A DNA stretch of 64,000 nt. Origin: Deltaproteobacteria bacterium. GTDB lineage: Bacteria > Bacillota > Clostridia > Acetivibrionales > UBA4821. The notes beneath the pieces were generated by a model. The model was not told where the DNA came from. It searched no databases and saw only the letters and a list, made by a program, of their open reading frames with translations. The stretch covers positions 29,543 through 93,542 of the forward strand of contig JBLMYQ010000002.1 of NCBI GenBank assembly GCA_050258375.1, read 5' to 3'. Positions 4,365-26,838 of the stretch are shown here, piece by piece. The position numbers and the translations under genes are program-made. Every line of letters begins with the position of its first letter. Position 1 is the stretch's first letter.

Positions 4365-4379
4365 TTATCTTTCCCTCCG

Positions 4380-5189: not shown

Positions 5190-5219
5190 TTTAATTCTTT
5201 CTCCTGTAAAATAAGATTA

Positions 5220-5783: not shown

Positions 5784-5806
5784 CTTATCTATCCTTCCTT
5801 TCAAAA

Positions 5807-6673: not shown

Positions 6674-6738
6674 AAATATCTAATCCTTCCATTATCTCTT
6701 AAATTCTTGCTTTCACTTACCTGTTCAAGCCTGCGGAA

Positions 6739-7761: not shown

Positions 7762-7902
7762 AAAATCCTCCAGATTCTTCTTAACACTAAATCTTATTCT
7801 TTATTGTTTATACTTATTATCTGGCAAAAGATTTTATTCCCTAAATATATTCAAGTAAAATGCTTATTCACTGCATGTTTAGGACATTTAAAATACGTTG
7901 GG

Positions 7903-7937
7903 GAAAAAATAAAAGGTTACTGTTAAAGTAACCTTCA
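7903..7937 (-). terminator. hairpin (AAGGTTAC-loop-GTAACCTT) followed by T-run after manC
   Basis: 8-bp perfect stem plus TTATTTTTT on minus strand. Confidence 0.45.
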
Positions 7938-7957
7938 GGCTATTGACAAACTGACCA

Positions 7958-9355: not shown

Positions 9356-9433
9356 GCTTTTGAAACCTCCATTTGGATTGTTAGTAATATTATTCTCCAA
9401 ATCTTCAGATTTTAAAAGCATAGAGGAATAATG

Positions 9434-11260: not shown

Positions 11261-11336
11261 AACAAACATCCCCTCTTAGCATAACCGTCTTTTTACAGTC
11301 TACTAAACGGAAGAGCGTTCATATCTAAAGATTCTT

Positions 11337-13190
11337 TTATTTAACCTTTTCCTGAAAATTTTTTCCAAACAACCGGTCATATTGGAGCAGCCAATATTGG
11401 TCTTCAATTTTCTTGAAGGTTTTGTCATTTATTCCGTGCAAGCCGCCTTTAGAGTCAATCTTTAACTCTTTCAAGCATCCTGGCAAGGTTTTATATATGC
11501 TGTCAAGAAACTTAAAATAAGGAGGCAGTTCTTTACCTAACATTTTCAGGACATATACTCCAAAGAACGAATCACTGATATTTTCTACCACTTGTCTTTC
11601 TTGCTTATAGTTTGTCCATATGACAAACGGCACACTTCTCATTTTCTTAAAGTCCTCAAGGGACCACTCTGCCTCTTTATCTGATGGAATGTAACCGGTT
11701 TGAGTATATACCCAATAATCATAGCCCAAAAGCGGTAAATGATCGCCAAAAAACACTACCACTGTGGGCTCTTGCGATTTAGAAGCAAAATCCATCAGGG
11801 TTTTTAATGCTTTATCTGCATCATTTATTCCTTGTGCATAGGTTTCAAGTACATACTTTGAATATTCAGAAAGCTTTCCTTTAACTTTTATTTCATTTTT
11901 TTTGTATCTTTTTTCTCCATCATATGGTCCATGGTTTTGCATTGTAACCGCATAAACAAAAACCGGTTTTTTATTACTCTCAATTTGGTTGATGATTTCC
12001 TTTGTAACCTCATCATCAGAAATGTAAAGACCTTTATACTTCGGGCTTTTCATTTTCTCACTGCTTATAAATGTATCAAAGCCCATATTCTGATAAACAT
12101 TATTTCTATTCCAGAACCATCCCAGATATGAATGCACTGCAGCTGTAGCATACCCCTGTTCCTTAAGTATATTCGGTATTGAAAGAATTGACTTCTTTAC
12201 ATACTGCTGATACGGAATCGAGTCCTTAGGCAAAAAGCTTAGAGAATTTCCTGTCAAAACCTCAAATTCAACATTTGCGGTCAAGCCTCCATACTGTGGG
12301 GAAATAACATTTCCTGTTGTAAAGCTCTTTTGAATCTCGTGAAAGGTAGGAATCGGATCAGTTTCAAAAGAAATTGATTTTATTTTAGTAGGATCCCAGA
12401 AAGCTTCACTCATAACGAATATTATATTCGGGTTTTGTGGATTTTGTGGTTTTTCCTTTTTATTAGCAATGTTTTCATTTAATACTTTGATAACATTAGC
12501 TTCGGAATATCCTTCCGGTTTTGAAACTACTGAATTTTTTATATTTCTAAAAAATGAAAGTACAACTCCATTTTTTTTGTAGTTCTCCTTTTGATTCCAG
12601 CCGATTTCTCCAATTCCTTGCTTCGAAAGCATATTGCTCAGAAAAACAGGTTTTATATATGAAACAGTAGTTAATAAAAAAAGAGCTAAAACACCTATTA
12701 ATATACGTTGATAATACCTGAGCTTTAGCTTTGGTAAATAAAATCTTAATACAGCTGTCAGTATGCTTACAAAAATTATAGCAAAAAGAACAATAAACGC
12801 CTTTTTTTGATTAAGCATCGGGAAAATGTTCATTCCTTCTTTTTTAATAAGCAAGTCCCAGGGAAATACCGGCTCTCCGCGGAATCTTTCCTTATAATAG
12901 CTGGCAAAGGAAAGAATCAGGAGGGCAAAATAACTAATAGTACTGCTTACATATATGCATCCGCAAATAGCGTAAAACACAAGCATAAACAGAAAAACCA
13001 CTGCCCAGTTTGCCAAAAATATTTTTAGTGAAAATATGCTCCATTTAATTGTTTTTAAAAGTGAATAGTTATGATGGATAAACTCAACCCCGAAGGTCAG
13101 AACCAAAGAAAGCATCAGGAAAATACCAAAAGCTATAAGATTACTATATTTATGCTTTTTCAAATTATTCAAGAAATCAAAAACCTTCAT
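11337..13190 (-). CDS. LTA-synthase (LtaS) family sulfatase-like phosphotransferase, paralog 2
   Basis: Same architecture and collinear motifs as 9434..11260 (~50% identical by eye); RBS AGGGGG + ATG 13190. Confidence 0.75.
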   Translation of the reverse strand: MKVFDFLNNLKKHKYSNLIAFGIFLMLSLVLTFGVEFIHHNYSLLKTIKWSIFSLKIFLANWAVVFLFMLVFYAICGCIYVSSTISYFALLILSFASYYKERFRGEPVFPWDLLIKKEGMNIFPMLNQKKAFIVLFAIIFVSILTAVLRFYLPKLKLRYYQRILIGVLALFLLTTVSYIKPVFLSNMLSKQGIGEIGWNQKENYKKNGVVLSFFRNIKNSVVSKPEGYSEANVIKVLNENIANKKEKPQNPQNPNIIFVMSEAFWDPTKIKSISFETDPIPTFHEIQKSFTTGNVISPQYGGLTANVEFEVLTGNSLSFLPKDSIPYQQYVKKSILSIPNILKEQGYATAAVHSYLGWFWNRNNVYQNMGFDTFISSEKMKSPKYKGLYISDDEVTKEIINQIESNKKPVFVYAVTMQNHGPYDGEKRYKKNEIKVKGKLSEYSKYVLETYAQGINDADKALKTLMDFASKSQEPTVVVFFGDHLPLLGYDYWVYTQTGYIPSDKEAEWSLEDFKKMRSVPFVIWTNYKQERQVVENISDSFFGVYVLKMLGKELPPYFKFLDSIYKTLPGCLKELKIDSKGGLHGINDKTFKKIEDQYWLLQYDRLFGKNFQEKVK

Positions 13191-13202
13191 TATAAAAGCC
13201 CC

Positions 13203-14432
13203 CTAAATCTTTACTACATCTTCTCTCTGTATACCCTTATCTTGTTTTGTCCGTAATATTATATTAAATAAATTTATTACAAGCAGGCTTGCTCCTATTC
13301 CAAGCAATATATATAATACCTGATAAATAGTCTGATGGTAAATAGAAATCAATATTATTTCAGCTGTACTACCTAAAACCATAGTCCAGACAGAAATAGT
13401 ATTTTTATTTACAGCAAGATTAAAATTAGCCAATACATTAAGCAAACATAAAGGCAGCATTGCCAAAGATATCAGCTTAATATATGGAAGTGCAGTTAAA
13501 AACCTTTCTCCGAAAAATATTTTTGTTATAATCTCAGGGAATATATAAATCACTGCGATACCTGCTGTACAAACAACAGCACTGTATAAAACTGCTTTTT
13601 TAAGGGATGTATAAACATCGCTATTAAGTACGTTGGCTTCTGTAACAATCGGGAACATTGCCATTACAACAGCTGAAGGAAAATAAAATATAACCCTTCC
13701 AAATATTGCTGCCGCTCCGTAAATACCTGATTCCTGTGGAGAAAAATAGTGTTTTATCATAATCATATCAATATTTGTTAACAGCATCATGCACAAAGTA
13801 ATAACAAATATAGGAATACCATATTGCAAGGCTTTTTTTCTGCCAAGCGCAGCCGTTTTCTCTCCATTGATAGTAAAATTACCTTTTATCAGCCAAAACC
13901 CATATACTACTGAAATTATATTGCCGGCAAGCAGTGCACCCAAAGCGCCTTCAAGGCTATAACCAATTATAACAAATATTACTCCTAAAACAAGTCTGAA
14001 AACATAACTTACAGCATTTACAATTCCCAATTGCCAAAATTTTTTAGAGCCTTGAAACGTTCCAAGCGAAATTGGCAGAAGAAAAGCTGCTGCAATAGCC
14101 AATATTACATACACGACAAAGGATAGCTTTTCAACCTTCAAGTACCACCTGATTACCGGAGAAACTGCTAAACTTGCCGCGGTTATAACTCCTGTAAATA
14201 CGCTGATATAGAAAAATGTTTTTCTAAGGAAAAATCCTATTTTGTAATTCTCGCCGGCAGCTGAATATTCGGCAATATATTTAGATACAACCAATGCTAC
14301 TGCTGTCCCCGGAACAGATGCTATATTAATCAATGATAATAGCGCATTAAATGCGCCATATTCATCATAAGGCAATAACCTTCCCATAATTATTTGATAA
14401 AGGTAATTGCATATATTTGCTATCATCATCAT
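13203..14432 (-). CDS. wzx: polysaccharide biosynthesis protein / Wzx-like flippase (MOP superfamily), possibly N-terminally short
   Basis: ~11 TM helices; first segment LLPYDEYGAFNALLSL corresponds to region after TM1 of typical Wzx; in-frame stop only 19 codons upstream, so no room for a longer N-terminus. Confidence 0.65.
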   Translation of the reverse strand: MMMIANICNYLYQIIMGRLLPYDEYGAFNALLSLINIASVPGTAVALVVSKYIAEYSAAGENYKIGFFLRKTFFYISVFTGVITAASLAVSPVIRWYLKVEKLSFVVYVILAIAAAFLLPISLGTFQGSKKFWQLGIVNAVSYVFRLVLGVIFVIIGYSLEGALGALLAGNIISVVYGFWLIKGNFTINGEKTAALGRKKALQYGIPIFVITLCMMLLTNIDMIMIKHYFSPQESGIYGAAAIFGRVIFYFPSAVVMAMFPIVTEANVLNSDVYTSLKKAVLYSAVVCTAGIAVIYIFPEIITKIFFGERFLTALPYIKLISLAMLPLCLLNVLANFNLAVNKNTISVWTMVLGSTAEIILISIYHQTIYQVLYILLGIGASLLVINLFNIILRTKQDKGIQREDVVKI

Positions 14433-14518
14433 TGTAAAAATTATTAAACTTCCTTTTTCAAGCTCTTTCAGTCTTGTTATTATAAGTCACCCCTTGTATA
14501 GCTTAAAGTGTAAGCTCC

Positions 14519-17254
14519 TTAGACCCCTCCCAATTTTGCAAGCTTTTCTTTTGCCTGGCTGACAGCTTGATCCAGCTCTCCAGCGGTTGTTACTGGCTTT
14601 AATGACTTTTTGCCTGTTTCTTCAAATTCATTTTTAATCTCTGATGCTTTCTTAAAGTAAACCTTCGCCTTTCCCTTGTCTCCTAATTGAACTGCATTTT
14701 CACCTGCTATTATATATAGCTGAGCCTTTTCATAATATGCATCGGCAATGAATCTTTCCATTACTACAAGATTATCTGCATATGCCAACCCTTCATCGAA
14801 CTTTCCATTAGCAAGCAGGAAGGATGCGGCTTGAGCAATAGAAATAAATGAATTTGGTTCATTTTTAACATTAATCTTTATATTATCTCTCAATTGGGTT
14901 TCTATTTCGTCTCTTTGTTCCTTGGATAAATTTTGAGCAAGCATTTGATACATATTTAAATATTTTACATATGTTTGCCTTCTTTTTTCATCAAGCGGCT
15001 GAATCTTTAAATATTCGCTGTAAGAAGGAATCAACACCGGAAGAATCTTTCGCAAATCTTCAGCGGCAGGCTGTTTCCCAGCGTATGTGCTTTCTAAAAT
15101 ACTTGCCTTGGCAATCAGGCTTCTGCCGTTTAAAGAGTTAATTCCTGCAGCAATAAGCATTATCATCAGGATTGCAATTAATGTTGAAGCACAATAATTT
15201 ACTGATGGGGTAAAATCTTTATATTTTTTCTTATTAGCACTATCATATATTTTTATTTCAAAACCTTTATAATCTTTCCGCAAAATATACATACCTGCAA
15301 GTATTCCGGTCAATGCCCATGCTGTAATCGGTACAGCACTCAGCGAAAAATCAAAATCTATAATACTATGTGCATATAATGACAATATCGCTACAAATAC
15401 TGTGCTTGCAGTAATTATCCTATTGGAATTGTCAACACCCTCTGTCTCTGTTTCATTTTTTTCAAGTCTTACCTTTCTATAGTGATGAATAATCAAAACT
15501 ATAGTTCCAATTAATACTGAAATCCCTAAAATTCCCGTTTCAACCCAAAGCTGAACCGGATAATTATGAACCTCATTAGAAGCATACTCGTAAGATTGAT
15601 ATTGATGGTAAAGAGCTTTCCAGCCTCCTCCACCTGTTCCGAACGGATATGCACCTATTATCCTGAATGCATCATTTACAAATATTAATCTCTGCCATGC
15701 ATTATGAGTTTGTAAGCTTATATCCTGAATTTTATATATCAAATCTGTAGGAAGATATTTATATTGTATTATTAATTTTTTTTCTTTGCCCGTATTTACG
15801 TCTTTAAGAACAAAATTTGAAAAGCTGGCGCTGGTATTTGGGATGTAATTTTGCAATTGAATTCTTAATGTCCTAGTGCTGTCTTTTGTTGTAAATTCCA
15901 TACTTTTTCTTGCCTTTTCGGTTTTACCCTTTATTTCTGCAAGCTGCTCAAGATTGGCAAATTTATCCATGCCTAATGCTATAATACTGTATGGCTCCTC
16001 ATTTTTTTCATTAGAAAGGGCATCAACATCAAAATTAAGAATATACTTTGCAGATGGTTTTATATTTGTGATATCTCTGACAACTATCTTCTGGGAAGCA
16101 GCCTCTTTTACATCATGTTTTATAAGCAGCGGCTTTTCAATATTAAGTGCAAAACCTACTAAAACAACAAATATCATTACCACTGAAGCAGCTGTTACTA
16201 CATATATTTTTGTACTTACAGCAAAAAGAACTCTCTTTAATCTCTGAATAATGCTTGTCAGAACTGCCGAAATAAATGCTCCGATAATAATAGTAATCCA
16301 AACCTTTGAGTACTGCCCCGCATTGACATAGTTTCCATACATGGCAGAGAATGAAACGCCTGCAACTATAGGAACAAATGCGTCAACAGTAAAACTCAAT
16401 ATATGCTTTTTATTCCTGAAGGAAATGAAAAGTATTAATACCATAAGCGGAAGAACTAAAACCATTCCTCTCGAACCGGTCAGAATAAATGTATAAAATA
16501 CTATAAAGCCTGCCGCTCCGTACCAAGCCCTCTTCAAATATGATCTTGTTACCATTAGAAGTCCGGATATAAGCAAAAATACCGCTCCGAGATATGAAGC
16601 AAGCACGTTTGGATATTGAAGAGTAGAGAAGATTCTACCTTCAGCAAAGCCCCCAAAGAATTTAAAATCCATAAGCTTTGCCGCGCCTTGTTGAAACTGC
16701 AGCCAAACCGGAATCTGCTTAATAAACCAATTAATCTTATTTGTTAATATTCCGCCAGCTCCTGCATCCACTCCAAGGATACAAACACCTAATGCACTTA
16801 CCAGAATTGCATTTAAAATGATTTTTATATTTTTATCTTCTTTTATAATATCTCTGCATATTAAGTATATAAAGAAATAGTTAATGTATCTTAAAAATTT
16901 GTCCCAGGCTTCTTGTGCGCTCGCAGCTATACCAAGCATAATCGGAAGTGCATAGACCAGCACAAGCAATATGGCTGCAATATCCAACGGTGCTTTAATA
17001 ATCTTAAAATCCTTGTCAAATAATTTTTTTATAATAAAAGCAAGAAAAAGCAAGCCAGTGTATAAAAATGTGGTGGACATTTCTTCATTAAAGTATAATC
17101 CTCTGAAAAATGGAGCATAAAACAGTAAAATCACTAAACCAATCAGTACACATACATTTAGTACTTTTACCAGCTTTGATTTTTGAACAGGATTTTTGAC
17201 AGGCTCGCTGGTCTTCTTAATATTCTGTTTAATATTTGAATTTTTTTTGCCCAT
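14519..17254 (-). CDS. O-antigen ligase/polymerase (Wzy_C)-like polytopic membrane protein with C-terminal TPR repeats
   Basis: 911 aa, >12 TM helices, central periplasmic loop, C-terminal TPR-like region (AYADNLVVMERFIADAYYEKAQLYIIAGENAVQLG...); RBS AGGGAGAAAAGG. Confidence 0.65.
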   Translation of the reverse strand: MGKKNSNIKQNIKKTSEPVKNPVQKSKLVKVLNVCVLIGLVILLFYAPFFRGLYFNEEMSTTFLYTGLLFLAFIIKKLFDKDFKIIKAPLDIAAILLVLVYALPIMLGIAASAQEAWDKFLRYINYFFIYLICRDIIKEDKNIKIILNAILVSALGVCILGVDAGAGGILTNKINWFIKQIPVWLQFQQGAAKLMDFKFFGGFAEGRIFSTLQYPNVLASYLGAVFLLISGLLMVTRSYLKRAWYGAAGFIVFYTFILTGSRGMVLVLPLMVLILFISFRNKKHILSFTVDAFVPIVAGVSFSAMYGNYVNAGQYSKVWITIIIGAFISAVLTSIIQRLKRVLFAVSTKIYVVTAASVVMIFVVLVGFALNIEKPLLIKHDVKEAASQKIVVRDITNIKPSAKYILNFDVDALSNEKNEEPYSIIALGMDKFANLEQLAEIKGKTEKARKSMEFTTKDSTRTLRIQLQNYIPNTSASFSNFVLKDVNTGKEKKLIIQYKYLPTDLIYKIQDISLQTHNAWQRLIFVNDAFRIIGAYPFGTGGGGWKALYHQYQSYEYASNEVHNYPVQLWVETGILGISVLIGTIVLIIHHYRKVRLEKNETETEGVDNSNRIITASTVFVAILSLYAHSIIDFDFSLSAVPITAWALTGILAGMYILRKDYKGFEIKIYDSANKKKYKDFTPSVNYCASTLIAILMIMLIAAGINSLNGRSLIAKASILESTYAGKQPAAEDLRKILPVLIPSYSEYLKIQPLDEKRRQTYVKYLNMYQMLAQNLSKEQRDEIETQLRDNIKINVKNEPNSFISIAQAASFLLANGKFDEGLAYADNLVVMERFIADAYYEKAQLYIIAGENAVQLGDKGKAKVYFKKASEIKNEFEETGKKSLKPVTTAGELDQAVSQAKEKLAKLGGV

Positions 17255-17425
17255 TACCTTTTCTCCCTATTAAAAATATTACTACCTGCTTAGAACACGA
17301 ATTAGTTTAACATATTTTTCTGCAAAGATGCAAACCTCATACAAAAAAATTAAAACTGCTGTTAAAATTACTTTTTCAGCAGTCTTAAAAACTTTCCATT
17401 TAAAAATCTAAGAATATTCAACCAC

Positions 17426-19576
17426 TTATAACTCAAGCATCCTATAAATCATTACTACCGCTTCTGCTCTTGTACTGACATCACTTCCAGCAAGCATTCC
17501 GCCTTTTTTGCCTTTTATTATTCCTGCATTTGCTGCTTGGAGGAGACTCTCCCGCGCCCATTGGGGCACATTATTCCAATCAGTAATTTGCTCCTTGGCA
17601 TTTTCTTTAAGATTTATATTTTTATACTTTAATGCTCTTGAAATCATTGCAGCTATTTCCTGCCTGGTGATTTTTTCTTTTGGCTTAAAAGTGTCATCTC
17701 CCAATCCTTTGATTATTCCGATTCTTTTAGCTGTTGAAATATATGGAACAGCCCACGAGCCTATCTTATCCTGATCCCTAAAAATCTTTCCAGATGCGCT
17801 TTCAGGCTTTTCACCTATAGCAGCAACAATCATTCTTACAACCTCTTCCCTGGTAACCTTACGCTCAGGCTCAAATTTTCCTTCTCCTGTTCCCTCAACC
17901 ACACCTTTTAAAACCATATATTCAATTTCTTTTTTTGCCCATATAAAATTCTCTGTAATATCACTAAACTTATGTATATCTGCGTTTATGCCTTGTTCCT
18001 TGCTTTCCAGCATAGCTGGTTCCTTTACTTGTTCTTGCTGCTCTGCCTGTTCAGGCAAATCTGATTCTGCACTTTCGGACCAGAACCATATAACTATATC
18101 CTTATCTTTAACAGTACAATTTTTAGCTGAAACTCCCGGCACTTTCCCATTGACCTTATACTTCCAGCCAGCAGTAGAAGTAAGGTCTTCCTTTATTCCG
18201 TCAATTTCACTTATATATGCATCATCATTTTTTGTTTTAAAGTTAAGCCCTGTTTGATATAAAGCCTGCAAGACAGTTTTCCCATACTTCGTATTCTCAT
18301 CTACTGTTATTTTTTTAAGGGAACAGACTTCTTTTTCTCCCTTGCCTATTACCGATACGCTTATTGTAATACTTCCGGTCTTATCCTCCTGAGGCTCTGA
18401 GCCTGAAGAGCCACCGGGGCTGTTATTCCCTCCCGAAAACGGAATTAAATATTTAAGGTAATACCTGGTTATTGCCGAAATTTCTTCATAAGTTGAATAT
18501 TTTATATCAAAGCCGCTTTTAAAGCTTCCATCTTCATTTTGATTATCAAGCATTGCTGTAATAAGATTTTTGCCGTTCTTATTCCAGATTCCTTCTGTTG
18601 GGTTTATATTCAAATCAATCAGCATCATAACAGCTTCAGCGGTTGTATCACAATTTGGTGCTCCCCAAGCCTCAATAGCACCTGACGCGGTTTGCAATTT
18701 ATTGATTGACTCGATAGCCTTCTTAATAATTGCATGCTGATTGTCACAACCAAGAATCTTCAGAGAACGAACAATCCTTGCTGTTGTGTCTACATCAGTA
18801 AAGCCCCAATCTTCAAAAATACCGTTATTATAGCTTAATCCCTCAAAATACGCAATCAGCTCGTTCTTTTTCGGTATTCCTACCCCGGACTTGTCAAGAG
18901 CTATTATTGCAAGAACATCGGTATAAACACCCTCGCCAAATGTTCCATCATTTTTTTGTTTATCTAATAAAAGCTGAACTACATTCTTGCCATAAAAATC
19001 CTTCGGATTCTTTTTTAATGATGAGAGTGCATATATAAGCTTGGAAAGCTCCCCAGCTGTTGATTTATCAGTTATATTCAAAGAATGAAGATACTCAATA
19101 TATGTACTTTCTCCAGCCTTTGGAATATTAATATCCACTCCTGCATCTCCTAAAGCCGAAGCAATATAATAATGTCCTGTATAGCCTCCAAAGCTGCCAT
19201 CTGCACTCTGTATCCCTCTAAGGTAATTTACTGTCTTTTGAAGTACAGATTGATTATAAATATTAATCTGTACACTTTTTGTCTCTCCTTCATATACTGC
19301 CTTTATGACTGCAGTTTCATTCTTCCCGGAGTCCACAGAATCAAGAGTTATTATGAAATTGCCCTCTTGAGCATCAACCTTCTTATTATTGTAATACCAT
19401 TTAATATCAGAATAAACGCTTTCAGATACGCTGTCGATATTAAGGAGCATTTGCGAATTATTGAGATAGTATTCACCCTGTCTGGGTTGAATGATTTCAA
19501 AATTGGCATATGTAAAACCATACGTTGAAAGCAAAGTAATCAATAACATTATTGTAGATAAACCAAATTTTTTCAT
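17426..19576 (-). CDS. S-layer-anchored transcobalamin-like protein: signal peptide, prenyltransferase/squalene-cyclase-like alpha/alpha-toroid repeats, DUF4430 (transcobalamin-like beta domain), three SLH domains
   Basis: Signal peptide MKKFGLSTIMLLITLLSTYGFTYA; repeats DGSFGG/NDGTFG/ASGAIEAWG/NEDGSFKSG; DUF4430-like ITISVSVIG...KDIVIWFW; SLH x3 (FSDITENFIWAKKEIEYMVLKGVVEG..., FRDQDKIGSWAVPYIS..., ITDWNNVPQWARESLLQAANAGII...); last gene of B12-riboswitch operon. Confidence 0.75.
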   Translation of the reverse strand: MKKFGLSTIMLLITLLSTYGFTYANFEIIQPRQGEYYLNNSQMLLNIDSVSESVYSDIKWYYNNKKVDAQEGNFIITLDSVDSGKNETAVIKAVYEGETKSVQINIYNQSVLQKTVNYLRGIQSADGSFGGYTGHYYIASALGDAGVDINIPKAGESTYIEYLHSLNITDKSTAGELSKLIYALSSLKKNPKDFYGKNVVQLLLDKQKNDGTFGEGVYTDVLAIIALDKSGVGIPKKNELIAYFEGLSYNNGIFEDWGFTDVDTTARIVRSLKILGCDNQHAIIKKAIESINKLQTASGAIEAWGAPNCDTTAEAVMMLIDLNINPTEGIWNKNGKNLITAMLDNQNEDGSFKSGFDIKYSTYEEISAITRYYLKYLIPFSGGNNSPGGSSGSEPQEDKTGSITISVSVIGKGEKEVCSLKKITVDENTKYGKTVLQALYQTGLNFKTKNDDAYISEIDGIKEDLTSTAGWKYKVNGKVPGVSAKNCTVKDKDIVIWFWSESAESDLPEQAEQQEQVKEPAMLESKEQGINADIHKFSDITENFIWAKKEIEYMVLKGVVEGTGEGKFEPERKVTREEVVRMIVAAIGEKPESASGKIFRDQDKIGSWAVPYISTAKRIGIIKGLGDDTFKPKEKITRQEIAAMISRALKYKNINLKENAKEQITDWNNVPQWARESLLQAANAGIIKGKKGGMLAGSDVSTRAEAVVMIYRMLEL

Positions 19577-19597: not shown

Positions 19598-20875
19598 TTA
19601 TTTACCTGCACTGCTTTCCCTAATTACTTGATAAACACTTTTTAAATTATAATAATCCGCAAGTGCGGTTAATGCCCTCGTAGTTGCCATCATATCCGCC
19701 TCTCCTCCTCGGATATGGCTAAAGCTTCCATCCGAGAGCTGAAATGATATTATAAAATCAATCATATTTTTATCTTTTTCTTTTATCCATTCTTCAGAGG
19801 TTGGATCAATCCCTATTGCAACCAATCCCTGAACTACTGCCGAAGCTGTGTCAGGGTTTTCCTGACCGAATATCTCGAACCCACCGGAGGAGCTTTGTCT
19901 GGATTTGATAAACTCAACAGCCTTTTTAACCTCTTTATCATTTTTATTTTTCCCCAGGGCACTAAACCCAACAAGAGCCATACCAGTCATATCCATGTCA
20001 GATTTTGCTCCTGTGAATATTCCGAATCCACCATCAGAATTCTGCCTGGAAATCAGCCAGTCATAAGCCCTTTCGGAATTTGATATCCTTTCACCTGCAC
20101 AATACAAGGATATTATCCCCCAAATGTGTGAATTAAGAAGCTTCTCTCCTTTTCCCTGTATTGTATCTGCAAACTTGCCGGAAGCCGTTTGACTTTTTAT
20201 CACTGCTTCTACAAAATTTATGCCGGCAAAGCTTTTCGGATTTTTCCCCACCGATAAAATTCCGATTATTGTTCTCTGATAATCAGTTGCCCTCTCCGCA
20301 TCAAAATCATTGCCTTCTTTTATTTCTTTCTCTTTCCAATCCAATGCCTTTTTATAGTTATCCGGCTCTGAGCTTCTCTCAATCGAATACATTGCCGCAG
20401 CAGGCCAATCAAGGTATCCTTTAAAATCATTTTTCAAAAAATATGACTTTATATAATTTCCGGTGAGCTTCATAGAATTTAAAGTACGTTCACGTATTAT
20501 TGAATTTCCAGTATTTCTAAAATTAATTTCATTATTCTTTTGGGCTGAAAAAAAATTAGTCTTATGTTGGTTCCTTGTAACTTCAACTTGATTTTTATTA
20601 CTTACTTTTTCTTCATTCTCTTTTATGGAAGCATTGTTAAATTGCTTCTCCTGAATTTCATCCGTTTTAGATAAAGGTACTATCTCAGTCCTTTTTATTA
20701 CTGGTTTTGAGGCTGAAGCTTTGTCCAAAGCCTTTGAGGAAACAAAAATCTGTGTTTTTTTATTTGCCTGATCAGCCATGCCCTTAGTAAAGACAGCAAT
20801 ACCTATTAACATAAAGCTAGCTATTATTCCGATTAAAATACCTTTTTTCTTAATATCCCTCACTCCTTTGGCCAT
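19598..20875 (-). CDS. membrane-anchored protein with prenyltransferase-like alpha/alpha-toroid repeats (transcobalamin alpha-domain-like)
   Basis: N-terminal TM anchor, low-complexity linker, then repeats SQTASGKFAD / SRQNSDGGFG / SRQSSSGGFE typical of squalene-cyclase/prenyltransferase repeat fold. Confidence 0.6.
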   Translation of the reverse strand: MAKGVRDIKKKGILIGIIASFMLIGIAVFTKGMADQANKKTQIFVSSKALDKASASKPVIKRTEIVPLSKTDEIQEKQFNNASIKENEEKVSNKNQVEVTRNQHKTNFFSAQKNNEINFRNTGNSIIRERTLNSMKLTGNYIKSYFLKNDFKGYLDWPAAAMYSIERSSEPDNYKKALDWKEKEIKEGNDFDAERATDYQRTIIGILSVGKNPKSFAGINFVEAVIKSQTASGKFADTIQGKGEKLLNSHIWGIISLYCAGERISNSERAYDWLISRQNSDGGFGIFTGAKSDMDMTGMALVGFSALGKNKNDKEVKKAVEFIKSRQSSSGGFEIFGQENPDTASAVVQGLVAIGIDPTSEEWIKEKDKNMIDFIISFQLSDGSFSHIRGGEADMMATTRALTALADYYNLKSVYQVIRESSAGK

Positions 20876-21500
20876 ATTTTGCTCTCACTTGGGTAACCCT
20901 GTTTTCCTCCTCTATTTTTACATCAATGCTCATTTTCCTTTGAAACCTTGTTACTATATTCACAAACTCAGCACCAAACAACCATGCAAAAATTATGTTT
21001 CCGGCCCCATGCAAGGTATCAAACCAAAAGCTTGAGGCACATAATATCAGATAGCCCTTTAAGCTGTGCGGAGAAGTATATGAGTACCAAGTCCAGAAAT
21101 TCATTATCCATCCAAAAAGGAATCCCCATACTCCACAAAAAATCGCAAAAGCTGGTTTATTAAAACCAATCTTGATTTTTCCAGCCAAGCCTGCCGTTAC
21201 TCCAGCAAATCCCCAGTCAATCATTTGCCAGGGAGTCCAGGGACCTTGTCCCAAAAAAAAGTTTGAAATTCCGGCAGAGAGAACTCCGGTAACAAATCCA
21301 GCCAGCGGTCCCATTGAATAGCCTGTAACAATTACTATAAACGTAGTTGGCTGAACATTAGGAATTGCTGCAAAAGGAATTCTTCCTAATGCCCCCAGCG
21401 CAGACATTATTGATATAAGCGCAATCTGCTTTGAGTTTATGTTTCTCTTTTCATAAATATATAGCCCAACGGCAATAAAAATAATTATTAGTATGGTCAT
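20850..21500 (-). CDS. ECF transporter S (substrate-capture) component, candidate cobalamin-specific (CbrT-like)
   Basis: 216 aa, 6 TM small integral membrane protein between EcfAA'/EcfT and B12-riboswitch context; RBS GGGGGTGA + ATG. Confidence 0.6.
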   Translation of the reverse strand: MTILIIIFIAVGLYIYEKRNINSKQIALISIMSALGALGRIPFAAIPNVQPTTFIVIVTGYSMGPLAGFVTGVLSAGISNFFLGQGPWTPWQMIDWGFAGVTAGLAGKIKIGFNKPAFAIFCGVWGFLFGWIMNFWTWYSYTSPHSLKGYLILCASSFWFDTLHGAGNIIFAWLFGAEFVNIVTRFQRKMSIDVKIEEENRVTQVRAKYGQRSEGY

Positions 21501-21545
21501 AACTCACCCCCTGCCCCCTCTCTTAAAATAGAGGGGAATATAACT
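21501..21545. repeat. TAACTCACCCCCTGCCCCCTCTC + CCCCTCT..AGAGGGG hairpin element between ecfA and S-component gene (includes its RBS/start)
   Basis: repeat family member; rc gives GGGGGTGAGTTATG start context. Confidence 0.5.
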
Positions 21546-23187
21546 TCCTTTTAAGACTCTGTACCCTTCTAATTCTTCCCTCACCCATACCTTTAAACAA
21601 TTTATTAACCTGTGAAGGAAAATACAGATTATTATTCAAAATCTCTTCCCTTGTCCCATCCGCTGCTATTTCTCCTTCATGCATAATAACAACCCTTTCG
21701 CAGTATTGCACTGAAAAATCCACATCATGGGTTACAAGGATAATTGCTGCTCCTCTTTTTTGCAAATCCAGAAGCATTTCTCCAAGAGCCTTTTTGTTTT
21801 TATAATCCATTCCACGGGTAGGCTCATCCAGAAGAATTATTCCTTGAAACATACACATTATACTTGCAAGCGCCACCCTTTGTTTTTGACCTGAGCTTAA
21901 ATCCCTGGGGTTCTTATCCTTAAATTTATCCAACCCAAGAACCTCCATAAGCCCATTTGTTTCGTCATTCCATTTCCTATTAAAATTCTTTAGAGTAAAT
22001 AAAACCTCATCCTTTACTGTATCGTTGAAAAGGTAATCATCCGGATTTTGTCCCAGATAAGAGATTCTTTGAGCCAGCTCATAAACACTCTTTCCTTCGT
22101 TGGAAACCCCAGCCGCCTCAATTGTTCCACTATCAGGCATTAACAGACCGTTGATATTTTTTAAAAGAGTCGTCTTTCCTGCTCCATTTTGACCAAGGAT
22201 TGCTATAAATTCTCCCTTTTTAACCTCAAGATTAATATCTTTTAAAGCATTCTTAAAATTATCATACGAAAAATTCAGCTTGCTGATTTTTACTGCTGTT
22301 TCCCTATGTACCTCAGTTCCACTTTTTAAATATTTCAAAGAAAGGGCTTGCAGATGATTTATCTCTGTTTCGGATAATCCCGCAAGGACTTTGTGCCCTT
22401 CCTCTACAGTGATTGGAATTTTTTCAAGATTAAATCCGAAAAATAATTTTGGAATAACCGGAACAAATTCAAATCCGGTTTTATCTGCCCACCCGCAGTA
22501 TTCGTCTGCTGCACCATCAAATACTATTCTGCCTCCATCCATAGCAATAACCCTATCAGCAAAATGAAGACATTTTTCAAGCTTTTGTTCGGCCATTATT
22601 ATAGTTTTATTACTGCGCTTTGCAACCTTTTTTATTGTATTCATCAACTCTTCCGATGATTTTGGATCTATCTGCGAAGTAGGCTCATCAAGAAGCAGTA
22701 CATCAGGATTCATTCCAAGTACCGAAGCAAGTGCAACCTTTTGTTTTTGACCGGAAGAAAGCATATTAATCTTTTTATCTGTAAGCCTTTGTATGCCAAC
22801 AGTGCGAATAACTTCAGCCATTTTCCCTTTAGCTTCATCCTTATTTATTCCCATATTCTCCATTGGCAGTAATATTTCTCTTTCTACAGTTGAGCAAACA
22901 AGCTGTTTTTCCGGGTCCTGAAAAAGCATTCCGACTTTAGGCGCAAGCGATTTTAAATTTTTCAACATATTTAAATCACCAACAAATGCGCTGCCTGATA
23001 TTCTGCCTCCATAAAATGCTGGAACCAATCCCGCCAACAGCTTCAATAATGTTGATTTCCCACATCCTGAATGTCCGACCAGCAGAATCATTTCTCCCCG
23101 CCTTATTCTCAAATTAATATTTTCCAAAGCAGGCAAAAAAGAGTCCGGATAAAAATATGTTAGGTTTTCTATTTTAAAGTTTTGCAT
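21523..23187 (-). CDS. ecfA: energy-coupling factor transporter ATPase, fused tandem EcfA-EcfA' (CbiO-like)
   Basis: Two ABC domains each with Walker A (GHSGCGKST; GQNGAGKTT), LSGGQ-type signatures (LSSGQKQ twice), Walker B LLLDEPT / ILLDEPT. Confidence 0.85.
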   Translation of the reverse strand: MQNFKIENLTYFYPDSFLPALENINLRIRRGEMILLVGHSGCGKSTLLKLLAGLVPAFYGGRISGSAFVGDLNMLKNLKSLAPKVGMLFQDPEKQLVCSTVEREILLPMENMGINKDEAKGKMAEVIRTVGIQRLTDKKINMLSSGQKQKVALASVLGMNPDVLLLDEPTSQIDPKSSEELMNTIKKVAKRSNKTIIMAEQKLEKCLHFADRVIAMDGGRIVFDGAADEYCGWADKTGFEFVPVIPKLFFGFNLEKIPITVEEGHKVLAGLSETEINHLQALSLKYLKSGTEVHRETAVKISKLNFSYDNFKNALKDINLEVKKGEFIAILGQNGAGKTTLLKNINGLLMPDSGTIEAAGVSNEGKSVYELAQRISYLGQNPDDYLFNDTVKDEVLFTLKNFNRKWNDETNGLMEVLGLDKFKDKNPRDLSSGQKQRVALASIMCMFQGIILLDEPTRGMDYKNKKALGEMLLDLQKRGAAIILVTHDVDFSVQYCERVVIMHEGEIAADGTREEILNNNLYFPSQVNKLFKGMGEGRIRRVQSLKRKLYSPLF

Positions 23188-24089
23188 TTATCAGACCTCC
23201 ATGAAAGTATCGCCGGCATGATAACCAATAGCGGTAAAAAGCCAACTACTATCCATACCCAAGCTGCATTATTGATAGTAAAACCAAGCCTTGGGAAGAA
23301 CTTAAAAGCTAAAAAGCCTCCTGAATAATTAAAAATTGTAATAAAAACAACCATTATTCCAGCAAATATAAGCCAAAAATCTTTTAATCCAAAGCTTTCA
23401 TCATAGTGCCTTCTGCGTTTTGCAGCTCCATAGCCTTTTGATTCAAGCGCCTCCGCTGTCTGCATGGAACCTTCGAGACTCGAAAAAAGCAATATCTTTA
23501 TAAACGGCCACCCGGCTTTAATACGTTTAAATATATTTTTCGAATCAAGCTGTACTCCTCTTGTCATTTGAACCTCAGCAATCCTTTTGGTACTTTCCAT
23601 CATGGAAGGAATCATTTTTGCGGTAAGTGCTGCAGTAACAGCCGAACGTGGAGCTGCAAATGAAATTAAATTAAAAATTTTATCAGCTTCAACGCAAATA
23701 TTTAAAAATACAAATAACAAAACAGTGTTAACAAGCTTAAGCATTAATACCAAAGCGAATATCAGACATTCCAATGTGATTTTTATATCCCCAAAGACAG
23801 GAACCTCGGTCAGCCTGAATAATACAGTTGCGCCTCTACTATTTACGATTGGATTTATCAGCATTATTGGTATCCCAATGAAGGCAGCAAGAATCAATGC
23901 ATTCTTAATAGCTTTTCTATCAGCAGACATTATCAGCAAGCAGATAGAACCAAAGAAAATTATCTGCACAGCCGGATTATTTGTAACTGAAACAAAAATA
24001 AGCATACAGGTCAAATAAATTATTAATGCCAATGTATTAAATGATTTGAAAAAGTCCTTCACTGTTTTCCTCCAATACTCCTTACACAA
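23169..24089 (-). CDS. ecfT: energy-coupling factor transporter transmembrane component EcfT (CbiQ family); start uncertain
   Basis: Polytopic membrane protein overlapping ecfA; CbiQ-like length and hydropathy. Confidence 0.7.
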   Translation of the reverse strand: MCKEYWRKTVKDFFKSFNTLALIIYLTCMLIFVSVTNNPAVQIIFFGSICLLIMSADRKAIKNALILAAFIGIPIMLINPIVNSRGATVLFRLTEVPVFGDIKITLECLIFALVLMLKLVNTVLLFVFLNICVEADKIFNLISFAAPRSAVTAALTAKMIPSMMESTKRIAEVQMTRGVQLDSKNIFKRIKAGWPFIKILLFSSLEGSMQTAEALESKGYGAAKRRRHYDESFGLKDFWLIFAGIMVVFITIFNYSGGFLAFKFFPRLGFTINNAAWVWIVVGFLPLLVIMPAILSWRSDKCKTLK

Positions 24090-25012
24090 GGAAGCCTTTG
24101 AAGCTTTCCTTTATAGGCAATTCCATAATAGCCTTCTATACTTTCCGGTTTTGAGAAAATTAAATCTGTCAAAGCTTCTATTCCTTTATGCTCCAAAGAG
24201 GTAACAACCCATACAGGGGCAGTATCCCCCAGAGAATTTGCTATCGCAAATACTATTCCGGTTTTGGAATCGCATACATCTTCAACTGAACCTGCGCAAT
24301 TCAAAAGGGATATTTCTCCTTTCCCAAATCTTACAGGCATTCCCCTGCTCTCACCGTCAGAAAGCAAAGCTGTAACGCTCTTATTCTTTATCAGATTTGC
24401 GTATTCTCCAACTAATATGCAAGGATAACCAGCAGCTACTTTAATTTTTTCAGGCAAAGGTTCTTCAATAATATTTTGCGCTTTTAAATTAGCAAGGCTT
24501 TGTTTAATCTTTAATGCCTCATTCTTATTCCCTTCAGAATAATAGATTCTCGTTCCCTTTGTCATGCCTTTAAAGCCATTGACAAAAGGCTCAGGATACG
24601 CACCTATTATTGCCGGAATAAAGCTGTTTCCATTCCACTGGTGATAATCCCATAAAAGCTTATCACCCTTCTTTAGATGATAAGCTTTGGATGAACAATT
24701 TGAAGCAATACCATTTACATAGTAAAACCAATCCTTTCCCGACTCGCTTTCAATCGAGGAGCTTAATCCATTTATTGCCTTAACAAAACCTCCGGTAGAT
24801 GCTTCAACTTCAAGATTCTTTTCAAGTATATCCAAAACAGTTTCTCCGGCTTCAACCAAAACAGTTTTCTCAAATAGGATTTCTGAACCAAACTCCCTGC
24901 TTACAATAAGCTCAACCTCAAAGGGTCTGTCCATTCCTTCATTATTATTCACAGAACATCCTGATAATAATAACAGCGATATTATAAGTATGTATTTTAA
25001 TTTTTCAAGCAT
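24059..25012 (-). CDS. lipoprotein with N-terminal DUF4430 (transcobalamin-like beta domain) plus second domain
   Basis: Lipobox LLLLSGCS; DUF4430-like VELIVSREFG...GDKLLWDYH; first gene after riboswitch; ORF-track start is TTG, ATG (MLEKLK) preceded by GGGAGTGAAGG. Confidence 0.65.
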   Translation of the reverse strand: MLEKLKYILIISLLLLSGCSVNNNEGMDRPFEVELIVSREFGSEILFEKTVLVEAGETVLDILEKNLEVEASTGGFVKAINGLSSSIESESGKDWFYYVNGIASNCSSKAYHLKKGDKLLWDYHQWNGNSFIPAIIGAYPEPFVNGFKGMTKGTRIYYSEGNKNEALKIKQSLANLKAQNIIEEPLPEKIKVAAGYPCILVGEYANLIKNKSVTALLSDGESRGMPVRFGKGEISLLNCAGSVEDVCDSKTGIVFAIANSLGDTAPVWVVTSLEHKGIEALTDLIFSKPESIEGYYGIAYKGKLQRLPCVRSIGGKQ

Positions 25013-25038: not shown

Positions 25039-25067
25039 AAAAAGCCCTTCTCACAAAAGAGAAGGGC
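25039..25067 (-). terminator. riboswitch expression-platform terminator (GCCCTTCTC-loop-GAGAAGGGC + T-run)
   Basis: Perfect 9-bp stem then TTTTT on minus strand immediately 3' of the cobalamin aptamer; alternative pairing with upstream GGGAGAAGGAGGGC suggests antiterminator. Confidence 0.7.
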
Positions 25068-25094: not shown

Positions 25095-25262
25095 CACCGA
25101 AAAGGATTTCCAGCACTGTTTCATCCACTCAGATATCCTGGCTCAGGTTCATTCTTCTCCTTCCCTTCCCGGTTCAATCCAGTGGGTATCTAAGGAGTCG
25201 TCACCATTACAGTAGCGGGGGCTGCGACGGATTCTAACCGTCTTTCCTGAAAAGCGTGGACA
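25095..25262 (-). promoter_or_regulatory. cobalamin (AdoCbl) riboswitch
   Basis: Minus-strand sequence GGTTAGAATCCGTCGCAGCCCCCGCTACTGTAATGGTGACGACTCC...ACCCACTGG...GGGAAGGGAAGG matches B12-element core (GGTnAnAATCC, GCnGnCCCGC..CTGTAA, B12 box CCACTG, GGGAAGG). Confidence 0.8.
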
Positions 25263-25283: not shown

Positions 25284-25312
25284 ATTATATAATATAAAAA
25301 TATTTAATTCAA
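25284..25312 (-). promoter_or_regulatory. sigmaA-type promoter TTGAAT-N17-TATAAT driving the riboswitch/ECF operon
   Basis: rc of 25307..25312 = TTGAAT, rc of 25284..25289 = TATAAT, 17-nt spacer. Confidence 0.6.
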
Positions 25313-25343: not shown

Positions 25344-25913
25344 CTACGAAAGCTTTTCTCTTAAATTACCAAAGATGCTGTCTATTCTTCTTACTCCAGT
25401 TGTATCAAGGATATATTCATAATTCTGCATAATATCTATTGCCAATTTTTTATCAGTACTGAAGCTGAAACAATTGATAAAATATACAGGAACAGCAATA
25501 TCCTGCAGCGTTCCCTCAGTTTCAATCATAATATTGCTAAGTTCTTCAAATGCTCCATGAATGCATATTATTACACCTTCATTTGAACAGTATCTTGCCA
25601 TAAGACCTATAATTTTACAAATAAAATTCCTGAACTGCTTATTCTCCGACATCTCTTTTATAGATTTTACAGGAAATTGAATAACATTATCAGAAAGCTT
25701 CTGCCTATCTATATTACAGCCGATACAATCTGATTTTTCAATAAGTTTGCTTCTTATATCATCATCAGTAAAAATAAGAACCTTTGACCCTTTCCCAACT
25801 TTCTGGGCAATATATTTTCCTACAGTAACCAGAAAATGTCCATTCCCTGTATAAAGATTGCATATTTTATTAAAAACTACATTGTTTGTATCACTTGTAT
25901 ATGGAACTTTCAA
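25344..25913 (-). CDS. hypothetical cytoplasmic protein (TTG start)
   Basis: 189-aa ORF, RBS GGAGGAA 6 nt before TTG; no recognisable motifs. Confidence 0.45.
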   Translation of the reverse strand: MKVPYTSDTNNVVFNKICNLYTGNGHFLVTVGKYIAQKVGKGSKVLIFTDDDIRSKLIEKSDCIGCNIDRQKLSDNVIQFPVKSIKEMSENKQFRNFICKIIGLMARYCSNEGVIICIHGAFEELSNIMIETEGTLQDIAVPVYFINCFSFSTDKKLAIDIMQNYEYILDTTGVRRIDSIFGNLREKLS

Positions 25914-26133
25914 GCTTTATTCCTCCATTAATAATTATTTGTACCTTCAGTATAATAATATTTCCATATATTTCCTGTCAAGCTTTTATTGTAAAATTTT
26001 GGTAATTATTTTTTTGGTGCTTAATCATTCTTTTAACAATTAATATAATATCCACTAAGTATAATACATAAAATTACGGTCAATAATTACTATAAGAAAA
26101 TAATTCACATACAGTTTAGGGGTGATTGTACAA

Positions 26134-26838
26134 ATGAAATTCATTAATTTTTTAAAACTGAATAATCTTGTTACAATAAAGAAGATATTTCATATGAAAC
26201 ATTTATTGATCTTATCTATACTCGTTGTTTCATATATAATTCTTTCAGGATATATATATTCTGAAAAGATAAGTGAAGACCTTGCCAAAAATGTTGTCAG
26301 GCTGCATGTAATTGCAAACAGCGATTCAAAACATGACCAGCAAATAAAATTAATGGTTAGGGATTCAATACTAAAATATATGGAAGAAAACTCTAAAGGT
26401 ATTAAGTCTGCAGATGAAGCTAAAAACTTCATTTGTAAGAACCTTTTAAATATAGAGAATATTGCTTGTACTGCCTTAAAATCATATGGCTCGGATTATA
26501 GCGCAAAAGCCTATTTTGGCAAATTTGTTTTTCCAACAAAGGTTTACGGCGATGTTACTTTACCATCAGGAGAATATCAATCTCTTAGAGTTGTTCTTGG
26601 GAATGGTATAGGAAAGAACTGGTGGTGTGTAATGTTTCCTCCTTTATGTTTTGTGGATGCATCAACCGGGGTGCTTCCAGATGAATCAAAGCTTCAGTTG
26701 AAAAGCGTTCTCACAGAAGAGGAGTACAAAATTGCTCTGGGGAATGCGAAGAATACTTGCCCTGATATAAAAATAAAATTTAAGATAGTAGAATTGCTGC
26801 AGCAGTCAAAGTTTATGTTGGCAAAGGGAAAAAGATGA
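26134..26838 (+). CDS. spoIIR: stage II sporulation protein R
   Basis: VVRLHVIANSDS...YGDVTLPSGEYQSLRVVLGNGIGKNWWCVMFPPLCF SpoIIR signature; signal-anchor; ATG 26134 preceded by GGGGTG. Confidence 0.8.
   Translation: MKFINFLKLNNLVTIKKIFHMKHLLILSILVVSYIILSGYIYSEKISEDLAKNVVRLHVIANSDSKHDQQIKLMVRDSILKYMEENSKGIKSADEAKNFICKNLLNIENIACTALKSYGSDYSAKAYFGKFVFPTKVYGDVTLPSGEYQSLRVVLGNGIGKNWWCVMFPPLCFVDASTGVLPDESKLQLKSVLTEEEYKIALGNAKNTCPDIKIKFKIVELLQQSKFMLAKGKR

What the first reader, a model, noticed from the sequence alone, without database searches (positions are those of the whole stretch)
17426..19576. Single polypeptide with transcobalamin-like alpha+beta order followed by SLH cell-wall anchor
- Domain order: signal peptide, ~280-aa alpha/alpha-toroid repeats, ~95-aa DUF4430 ending in the typical ...IVIWFW, then three SLH domains.
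- This mirrors the human transcobalamin alpha6/alpha6-barrel + beta-domain arrangement.
- It predicts a B12-binding cleft between the domains.
- The protein would be displayed on the secondary cell-wall polymer.
- The neighbouring genes (19598..20875 alpha-only; 24059..25012 beta-only lipoprotein) look like split versions of the same module.
Basis: inference. Interest (0 to 1): 0.75.

Follow-up and report, generated by a model that had tools for sequence, protein, structure and literature searches.

The report
Wall-anchored transcobalamin-like B12 capture protein
This gene encodes a cell-wall-anchored bacterial look-alike of the human vitamin B12 carrier transcobalamin, sitting last in a B12-riboswitch-controlled vitamin B12 import operon; the architecture was predicted by comparative genomics in 2007 and is widespread in databases, but I found no report that it has been tested biochemically.

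Summary
In a Foldseek search of the PDB with an AlphaFold2 model (pLDDT 84), the 15 best hits are all intrinsic factor, haptocorrin or transcobalamin, aligned across both domains.

Context supports the B12 reading. The gene is last in a six-gene operon that starts with a cobalamin riboswitch (25131..25248) with a terminator. The operon also encodes a DUF4430 lipoprotein, EcfT, fused EcfAA', an S-component whose only PDB relative is the B12 transporter subunit CbrT, and an alpha-only paralogue. The same gene set recurs in 11 of 15 related loci from GTDB representative genomes and in part in the other four. In 13 of the 15 a cobalamin riboswitch lies upstream.

It is not new as a kind. Burroughs et al. 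(2007) described bacterial toroid+SLBB fusions in CbiO/CbiQ operons and predicted B12 scavenging. Here, 109 of 169 related proteins examined carry alpha-beta plus SLH. Corrinoid binding is still untested, and the alpha domain matches terpene-cyclase Pfam families rather than Cobalamin_bind. Verdict: new member of a known, predicted kind; moderate interest.

The parts
25284..25312 (-). Promoter-like site (TTGAAT-17-TATAAT) upstream of the riboswitch
   Evidence: Consensus scan, 10 of 12 matches. This is a consensus match only.
25131..25248 (-). Cobalamin riboswitch aptamer core (RF00174)
   Evidence: 75.4 bits against a gathering score of 31.5, E 9e-17. The alignment shows an intact core including the B12-box region CCCACUGG...CCGGGAAGG. 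Only model positions 45-169 are matched.
25044..25067 (-). Intrinsic terminator hairpin of the riboswitch expression platform (GCCCTTCTC...GAGAAGGGC followed by TTTTT), 32 nt before the first start codon
   Evidence: Terminator scan and sequence. An upstream near-copy of the 3' arm (GAGAAGGAGGGC) could act as an antiterminator; that is inference.
24059..25012 (-). Gene 1: lipoprotein with a beta-only transcobalamin-like DUF4430 domain plus an unnamed C-terminal alpha/beta domain
23169..24089 (-). Gene 2: EcfT (CbiQ family) transmembrane coupling component
   Evidence: Pfam CbiQ 60.7 bits.
21523..23187 (-). Gene 3: fused EcfA-EcfA' double ATPase
   Evidence: NCBIfam ECF_ATPase_1 and ECF_ATPase_2, about 391 bits each. 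Two ABC_tran domains.
20850..21500 (-). Gene 4: ECF S-component, CbrT-like
   Evidence: Pfam ECF_trnsprt 37.8 bits. The only PDB sequence hit at E<=10 is 6FNP chain A, E 6e-11 over 170 aa. 6FNP is the ECF-CbrT crystal structure (PMC5997447); that the 182-aa chain A is CbrT itself is inferred from the entry and the chain length.
19598..20875 (-). Gene 5: membrane-anchored alpha-only toroid paralogue
   Evidence: Pfam Prenyltrans 58 bits. 30% identity to the alpha domain of gene 6, E 9e-19. N-terminal hydrophobic segment ILIGIIASFMLIGIAVF.
19505..19576 (-). Gene 6, aa 1-24: signal peptide
   Evidence: Read from the sequence.
19256..19504 (-). Gene 6, aa 25-107: N-terminal beta-sandwich domain, no Pfam family
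   Evidence: AF2 strands. No significant Pfam hit. Absent from some family members such as P0011 and P0015.
18446..19249 (-). Gene 6, aa 110-377: alpha/alpha toroid (the 'alpha domain') with four Q-x-x-[DS]-G-x-[FI] repeats
18377..18442 (-). Gene 6, aa 379-400: flexible Gly/Ser-rich interdomain linker
   Evidence: pLDDT below 50.
18077..18370 (-). Gene 6, aa 403-500: DUF4430 / SLBB beta-grasp domain (the 'beta domain') with invariant TAGWKYxVN
   Evidence: Pfam DUF4430 52 bits on the isolated domain. Invariant columns. Foldseek alignments to TC, IF and HC span this domain.
17429..17971 (-). Gene 6, aa 536-716: three SLH repeats (cell-wall anchor)
   Evidence: Pfam SLH, 3 stretches, E 3e-30.
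17343..17388 (-). Terminator-like hairpin plus T-run ending the operon
   Evidence: RNA fold -17.9 kcal/mol, z -4.09, 0 of 200 shuffles as stable. Sequence.

Best explanation
The protein is an extracellular corrinoid (vitamin B12 family) capture protein held in the cell wall of a spore-forming Bacillota bacterium. It is an accessory to a dedicated, B12-repressed ECF-CbrT importer. When intracellular B12 is low, the riboswitch lets transcription run through all six genes. The secreted protein is held in the wall by its three SLH repeats. Its alpha/alpha toroid and beta-grasp domain, joined by a flexible linker, close around a corrinoid as in transcobalamin. This step is inferred. The ligand is then passed inward, most likely to the membrane-proximal pair formed by the TM-anchored alpha-only paralogue and the beta-only lipoprotein, and from there to the CbrT-like S-component, which EcfT and EcfAA' power to import it. 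The hand-off order is also inferred. Shown here: the domain architecture, the fold match, operon membership, riboswitch control, CbrT homology and conservation of the gene set. Not shown: ligand binding, ligand identity and the relay.
Confidence: 0.75

Rival explanations
1. The module binds and delivers heme or another tetrapyrrole rather than corrinoids, as proposed for the L. sakei Lsa1836-1840 ECF-like system with split transcobalamin-like alpha and beta proteins.
For: The L. sakei paper models heme in the alpha/beta groove and reports that the operon acts in heme uptake. Tetrapyrrole pockets can be promiscuous.
Against: Here the operon is headed by a cobalamin riboswitch, as are 13 of 15 related loci. 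The S-component's only PDB relative is CbrT. No heme-related genes lie in the operon.
Confidence: 0.07
2. It binds corrinoids but acts mainly as a wall-resident store or as a competitive sequestration device (withholding B12 from neighbours), not as an obligatory feeder of the transporter. The membrane-proximal alpha and beta proteins alone would serve CbrT.
For: Most related proteins carry several alpha and beta modules plus SLH, which suits high-capacity binding. The SLH anchor places the protein away from the membrane. L. delbrueckii ECF-CbrT transports B12 without such proteins.
Against: The gene is co-transcribed and co-conserved with the transporter under the same riboswitch. That fits acquisition, although it does not exclude storage.
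Confidence: 0.13
3. The toroid is an extracellular enzyme or a glycan/lipid-binding domain (terpene-cyclase, prenyltransferase or six-hairpin type) acting on the cell envelope, and the B12 context is incidental.
Against: The third Asp of DxDD is an invariant Thr in this family. The protein is secreted, away from isoprenoid diphosphate substrates. The toroid is always paired with DUF4430 under B12 riboswitch control. A terminator separates the operon from the polysaccharide genes.
Confidence: 0.05

Closest known systems
Bacterial 'transcobalamin-like clade' SLBB proteins fused to an alpha/alpha toroid (Burroughs, Balaji, Iyer & Aravind 2007, Biol Direct 2:4)
   Same: Signal peptide, toroid N-terminal to the SLBB/DUF4430 domain (their Desulfotomaculum example), a second paralogous SLBB protein in the operon, CbiO-like ATPase and CbiQ-like membrane protein neighbours, low-GC Gram-positive host, predicted B12 scavenging.
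   Different: That paper does not mention SLH anchoring or riboswitch control; both terms occur zero times. It lists LPXTG, Ig, FIVAR, fasciclin and beta-propeller fusions instead. The CbrT identity of the S-component was not known then.
Mammalian transcobalamin / intrinsic factor / haptocorrin
   Same: Two-domain alpha toroid + flexible linker + beta domain in the same order. They are the top Foldseek hits. The beta domain is DUF4430, as in TCN proteins.
L. sakei Lsa1836-1840 ECF-like system (bioRxiv 10.1101/864751)
   Same: ECF S, AA' and T components plus secreted beta-like (Lsa1839) and alpha-like (Lsa1840) transcobalamin-type proteins. This corresponds to genes 1-5 here.
   Different: It was assigned to heme. 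No fused alpha+beta SLH protein is described, and no cobalamin riboswitch is reported.
ECF-CbrT vitamin B12 transporter of Lactobacillus delbrueckii (PDB 6FNP; Santos et al. 2018)
   Same: Homologous S-component (E 6e-11) working with an EcfAA'T module. It is shown experimentally to import cobalamin and cobinamide.
   Different: That is a group II system sharing a common ECF module, with no extracytoplasmic accessory proteins. The system here is a dedicated operon-encoded module with three surface accessory proteins.
Surface B12-capture lipoproteins BtuG/BtuH of Bacteroides, and the Isd NEAT-domain heme relay of Staphylococcus (from my own knowledge; functional analogues only)
   Same: Surface-exposed high-affinity capture proteins that feed a membrane transporter. 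Isd is a through-the-wall relay of wall-anchored binders.
   Different: Unrelated folds (beta-propeller, Ig-like, NEAT), different anchors and different transporters. No homology.

Membership tests
Bacterial toroid + transcobalamin-like SLBB (DUF4430) surface proteins (Burroughs et al. 2007) | DUF4430/SLBB domain above the Pfam gathering score | tested here: met
   47.2 bits (52.4 on the isolated domain) against a cutoff of 23.8.
Bacterial toroid + transcobalamin-like SLBB (DUF4430) surface proteins (Burroughs et al. 2007) | Alpha/alpha toroid fused in the same polypeptide | tested here: met
   [not shown]
Bacterial toroid + transcobalamin-like SLBB (DUF4430) surface proteins (Burroughs et al. 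2007) | Secretion signal or surface location | tested here: met
   N-terminal signal-peptide-like sequence by inspection (no predictor available). Three SLH repeats.
Bacterial toroid + transcobalamin-like SLBB (DUF4430) surface proteins (Burroughs et al. 2007) | Operon with a CbiO-like ATPase, a CbiQ-like membrane protein and a second SLBB paralogue | tested here: met
   Conserved in related loci.
Eukaryotic cobalamin-binding proteins (TC/IF/HC; Pfam PF01122 Cobalamin_bind) | Alpha domain recognised by the Cobalamin_bind profile, or by sequence search against TC/IF/HC | tested here: not met
   No PF01122 hit at E<=10. HMMER profiles of the alpha+beta region and of the beta domain do not reach TC, IF or HC in the PDB.
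Eukaryotic cobalamin-binding proteins (TC/IF/HC; Pfam PF01122 Cobalamin_bind) | Two-domain fold: alpha6/alpha6 toroid, linker, beta domain, in that order | tested here: met
   Foldseek top 15 hits, E down to 2.6e-12, about 435 aligned columns.
Eukaryotic cobalamin-binding proteins (TC/IF/HC; Pfam PF01122 Cobalamin_bind) | One corrinoid bound at the alpha/beta interface | not testable with these tools
   The model is ligand-free and its domains are undocked (rmsd about 23 A). This needs spectroscopy, ITC or a structure.
ECF-CbrT type vitamin B12 importer | S-component homologous to CbrT | tested here: met
   6FNP_A is the only PDB hit, E 6e-11, 170 aa. No other solved S-component is hit at E<=10.
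ECF-CbrT type vitamin B12 importer | EcfT plus two EcfA ATPase domains | tested here: met
   CbiQ 60.7 bits. ECF_ATPase_1 and ECF_ATPase_2 at about 391 bits each, above their cutoffs.
ECF-CbrT type vitamin B12 importer | B12-linked genomic context or regulation | tested here: met
   Cobalamin riboswitch plus terminator directly upstream. Also in 13 of 15 related loci.
ECF-CbrT type vitamin B12 importer | ATP-dependent cobalamin/cobinamide transport | not testable with these tools
   Needs an uptake assay, for example the E. coli triple-knockout growth assay or 57Co-B12 uptake used for ECF-CbrT (PMC5997447).
SLH-anchored cell-wall proteins | Three tandem SLH repeats | tested here: met
   Pfam SLH, 3 stretches, 104 bits.
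SLH-anchored cell-wall proteins | Host makes a pyruvylated secondary cell-wall polymer (CsaB-type pyruvyltransferase) | tested here: inconclusive
   No PS_pyruv_trans hit among the 29 window ORFs scanned. Only part of one 64-kb window was examined.
Class II terpene cyclases / prenyltransferases (enzymes) | Catalytic DxDD acid motif (SHC D374-x-D376-D377) | tested here: not met
   The aligned motif is D261-V-D263-T264-T265-A, with Thr invariant at the third Asp position. The HMMER sub-alignment is weak (2.6 bits). The role of the residues is from established SHC literature (my own knowledge).

The most novel reading that the evidence does not exclude
ECF transporters, usually described as working without extracytoplasmic binding proteins, here use a three-tier corrinoid relay across the Gram-positive wall. 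An SLH-anchored fused alpha+beta binder captures B12 in the wall. It passes the ligand to a membrane-tethered heterodimer made of the alpha-only protein and the beta-lipoprotein, a 'split transcobalamin'. That pair loads the CbrT S-component. The lipoprotein's conserved, unnamed C-terminal alpha/beta domain could be the docking element for CbrT or EcfT. This would also be the living bacterial counterpart of the module proposed to have been transferred to animals.
Probability: 0.35. Interest if true: 0.65.

Novelty: new member of a known kind. Interest (0 to 1): 0.4.

Why it matters
If the predicted function holds, Gram-positive anaerobes capture vitamin B12 with the same two-domain clamp that humans use in blood and gut. 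It would also make a textbook statement directly testable, namely that ECF transporters have no external binding proteins. How cobamides cross thick cell walls and how bacteria compete for them are open questions in microbial ecology. This operon offers a compact, riboswitch-marked system that also occurs in cultured species (Anaerovirgula multivorans, Desulfotruncus alcoholivorax), where it could be tested. It bears as well on the proposed bacterial origin of the animal B12 carriers. As a sequence finding it is a good example of an already predicted class rather than a discovery.

Tried and rejected
1. HMMER profile of the alpha+beta region against PDB sequences hit only squalene-hopene cyclase (E 1e-6), not TC, IF or HC. 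The link to TC is therefore structural plus Pfam DUF4430, not a direct sequence match.

2. A beta-domain profile built from 13 diverse homologues against the PDB hit only the bacterial DUF4430 structure 3U7Z (RUMGNA_00854, E 0.004), not TC.

3. Pfam at E<=10 on the isolated alpha domain gave no Cobalamin_bind hit.

I repeated it with database homologues.

5. Rodionov et al. 2009 (PMC2612444), which first predicted CbrT, is not held. CbrT facts are taken from Santos et al. 2018 instead.

6. The terminator scan missed the 3' terminator because its loop exceeds 8 nt. It was found by reading the sequence and folding it.

7. I looked for CsaB-type pyruvyltransferase among the neighbouring ORFs to support SCWP anchoring and found none.

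8. Literature searches for biochemical work on bacterial DUF4430/toroid proteins found only the 2007 prediction and the L. sakei heme paper.

9. The enzyme reading of the toroid was considered and rejected (degenerate DxDD, secreted, always paired with DUF4430).

10. I could not extract residue-level structural alignments to TC, so conservation of the B12-contacting residues was not assessed.

Full report
**Observation.** The minus strand carries an ATG-started ORF at 17426..19576 encoding 716 aa.
- Pfam finds three SLH repeats (E 3e-30), DUF4430 at aa 432-500 (47 bits, cutoff 23.8) and SQHop_cyclase_C at aa 262-352 (32.4 bits, cutoff 26.1). Prenyltrans scores just below its cutoff.
- The N-terminus reads as a Sec signal peptide (MKKFGLSTIMLLITLLSTYGFTYA|N).
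- Twelve homologues with the same architecture (43-66% identical over the full length) conserve many residues in both the toroid and the beta domain, including TAGWKYxVN.

**Structure.** I built an AlphaFold2 model of aa 25-510 from an 11-sequence alignment (mean pLDDT 84.3, pTM 0.72). It shows four parts:
- a helical toroid (aa ~110-377);
- a 22-residue low-confidence Gly/Ser-rich linker;
- an alpha/beta domain (aa ~403-500).

Foldseek against the PDB puts intrinsic factor, haptocorrin and transcobalamin in all 15 top places (E 2.6e-12 to 3e-9). The alignments run to about 435 columns and so cover both domains. The global rmsd of about 23 A shows that the two domains sit differently, or are undocked, in the ligand-free model.

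By sequence the alpha domain is not a member of the eukaryotic Cobalamin_bind family. There is no PF01122 hit at E<=10 and no TC hit with HMMER profiles. The aligned equivalent of the SHC acid motif DVDDTA is an invariant DVDTTA.

**Surroundings.** The gene is the last of six tightly packed or overlapping minus-strand genes. In order:
1. a lipoprotein with DUF4430 (24059..25012);
2. EcfT/CbiQ (23169..24089);
3. a fused double ECF ATPase (21523..23187);
4. an ECF S-component (20850..21500);
5. a TM-anchored alpha-only toroid protein (19598..20875);
6. the alpha+beta+SLH protein.

Regulation and boundaries:
- A cobalamin riboswitch aptamer lies at 25131..25248 (75 bits, core intact).
- It is followed by a GC-rich hairpin with a T-run at 25044..25067, 32 nt before the first start codon. 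A promoter-like site lies upstream.
- A stable hairpin with a T-run at 17343..17388 ends the unit (z -4.09).

The only relative of the S-component among solved structures is chain A of 6FNP (E 6e-11). 6FNP is the ECF-CbrT vitamin B12 transporter of L. delbrueckii, shown experimentally to import cobalamin and cobinamide.

**Conservation.** A scan of one genome per GTDB species returned 15 loci. They come from Clostridiales UBA4821, Peptococcaceae, Syntrophomonadaceae, Dethiobacter, Anaerovirgula multivorans, Desulfotruncus alcoholivorax and others.
- tblastn with the window's proteins shows the same set in 11 of the 15 loci: an alpha..beta..SLH protein, the beta-lipoprotein, EcfT, EcfAA', the CbrT-like S-component and a second alpha protein. 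The other four loci (L011, L013, L014, L015) contain only part of it. The gene order is often different.
- Rfam finds a cobalamin riboswitch upstream on the same strand in 13 of the 15 loci, and two in tandem in Dethiobacter.
- An exhaustive HMMER search of 1.84 billion cluster representatives found 5205 proteins at E<=1e-3 and 1474 at E<=1e-10.
- I examined 169 proteins in total: 21 returned by the first homologue search and the 148 new cluster representatives among the best 150. Of these, 109 combine an alpha-then-beta adjacency with SLH repeats, and many are multi-module giants.

The architecture is therefore common, not rare.

**Host.** NCBI labels the source MAG 'Deltaproteobacteria'. The window itself encodes SpoIIR and two LtaS-like proteins and carries a large-type SRP RNA. 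The host is an endospore-forming Bacillota bacterium, for which SLH anchoring to a wall polymer is plausible. No CsaB gene was seen in the ORFs scanned.

**Mechanism (shown and inferred).**
- Shown: architecture, fold resemblance, operon structure, B12 riboswitch, CbrT homology and co-conservation.
- Inferred: at low B12 the operon is transcribed and the SLH-anchored protein clamps a corrinoid between toroid and beta domain as transcobalamin does.
- Also inferred: the ligand moves to the membrane-proximal alpha-only/beta-lipoprotein pair and then to CbrT for ATP-driven import.

Rivals:
- Heme, as claimed for the split system of L. sakei. The riboswitch argues against this.
- A storage or sequestration role rather than feeding the transporter.
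- An enzymatic or glycan-binding toroid. This is disfavoured by the degenerate acid motif, secretion and the constant pairing with DUF4430.

**Comparison with what is known.** Burroughs, Balaji, Iyer and Aravind (2007) defined the transcobalamin-like SLBB clade. They noted bacterial fusions with the toroid either N- or C-terminal, and operons with a second SLBB paralogue plus CbiO/CbiQ-like genes. They also noted that hosts usually lack key B12 biosynthesis enzymes, predicted B12 scavenging, and proposed transfer of the fused module from low-GC Gram-positives to animals.

What this window adds is the SLH anchor, explicit riboswitch control and the CbrT identity of the S-component. These are refinements rather than a new kind. 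I found no biochemical test of corrinoid binding by any bacterial member.

**Verdict.** It is a new member of a known, computationally predicted kind. Interest is moderate (0.4). Its value lies in being a clean, testable case of accessory binding proteins for an ECF transporter.

Noticed in passing
[not shown]
   Followed up: partly
window 26122..26838, 9434..13190, 56999..57264; L001: The source MAG is labelled 'Deltaproteobacteria bacterium' at NCBI, and its closest syntenic relative L001 is labelled 'Ignavibacteriales'. The window encodes SpoIIR and two LtaS-like sulfatase-family proteins and carries a large-type SRP RNA, so both bins look like mislabelled Bacillota.
   Followed up: partly
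L007 9151..9342 and 9506..9689; L005 9238..9429 and 18605..18796: Dethiobacter alkaliphilus has two full-length cobalamin riboswitches in tandem in front of its version of the operon. Anaerovirgula multivorans has a second riboswitch after the operon, in front of yet another alpha-only gene.
   Followed up: no
window 25131..25248: The window's riboswitch matches only model positions 45-169 of 189 (75 bits), whereas the riboswitches in the related loci are all matched over model positions 1-189 (41-137 bits). The peripheral 5' and 3' elements may be reduced or divergent here.
   Followed up: partly
window 19256..19504 (aa 25-107 of the SLH protein): An ~80-aa N-terminal beta-sandwich domain with no Pfam family precedes the toroid. 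It is absent from shorter family members (P0011, P0014, P0015).
   Followed up: no
window 25344..25913: A 189-aa ORF with no Pfam or NCBIfam match lies just upstream of the riboswitch on the same strand. It is conserved at that position in L001 (75% identity) and L002 (34%).
   Followed up: no
window 1894..17254: A cell-envelope polysaccharide cluster lies immediately downstream of the operon. It includes dTDP-rhamnose genes, a mannose-1-phosphate guanylyltransferase, a Wzm/Wzt ABC exporter, two LtaS-like proteins, a flippase and a 911-aa Wzy_C+TPR protein. The 911-aa protein stays syntenic with the operon in L001 and L002.
   Followed up: partly
related proteins P0022-P0169: Many relatives are giant surface proteins (up to about 3,500 aa) with several alpha and beta modules in varied orders (for example alpha-beta-beta-beta-alpha-SLH). 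This suggests multivalent corrinoid binders.
   Followed up: partly
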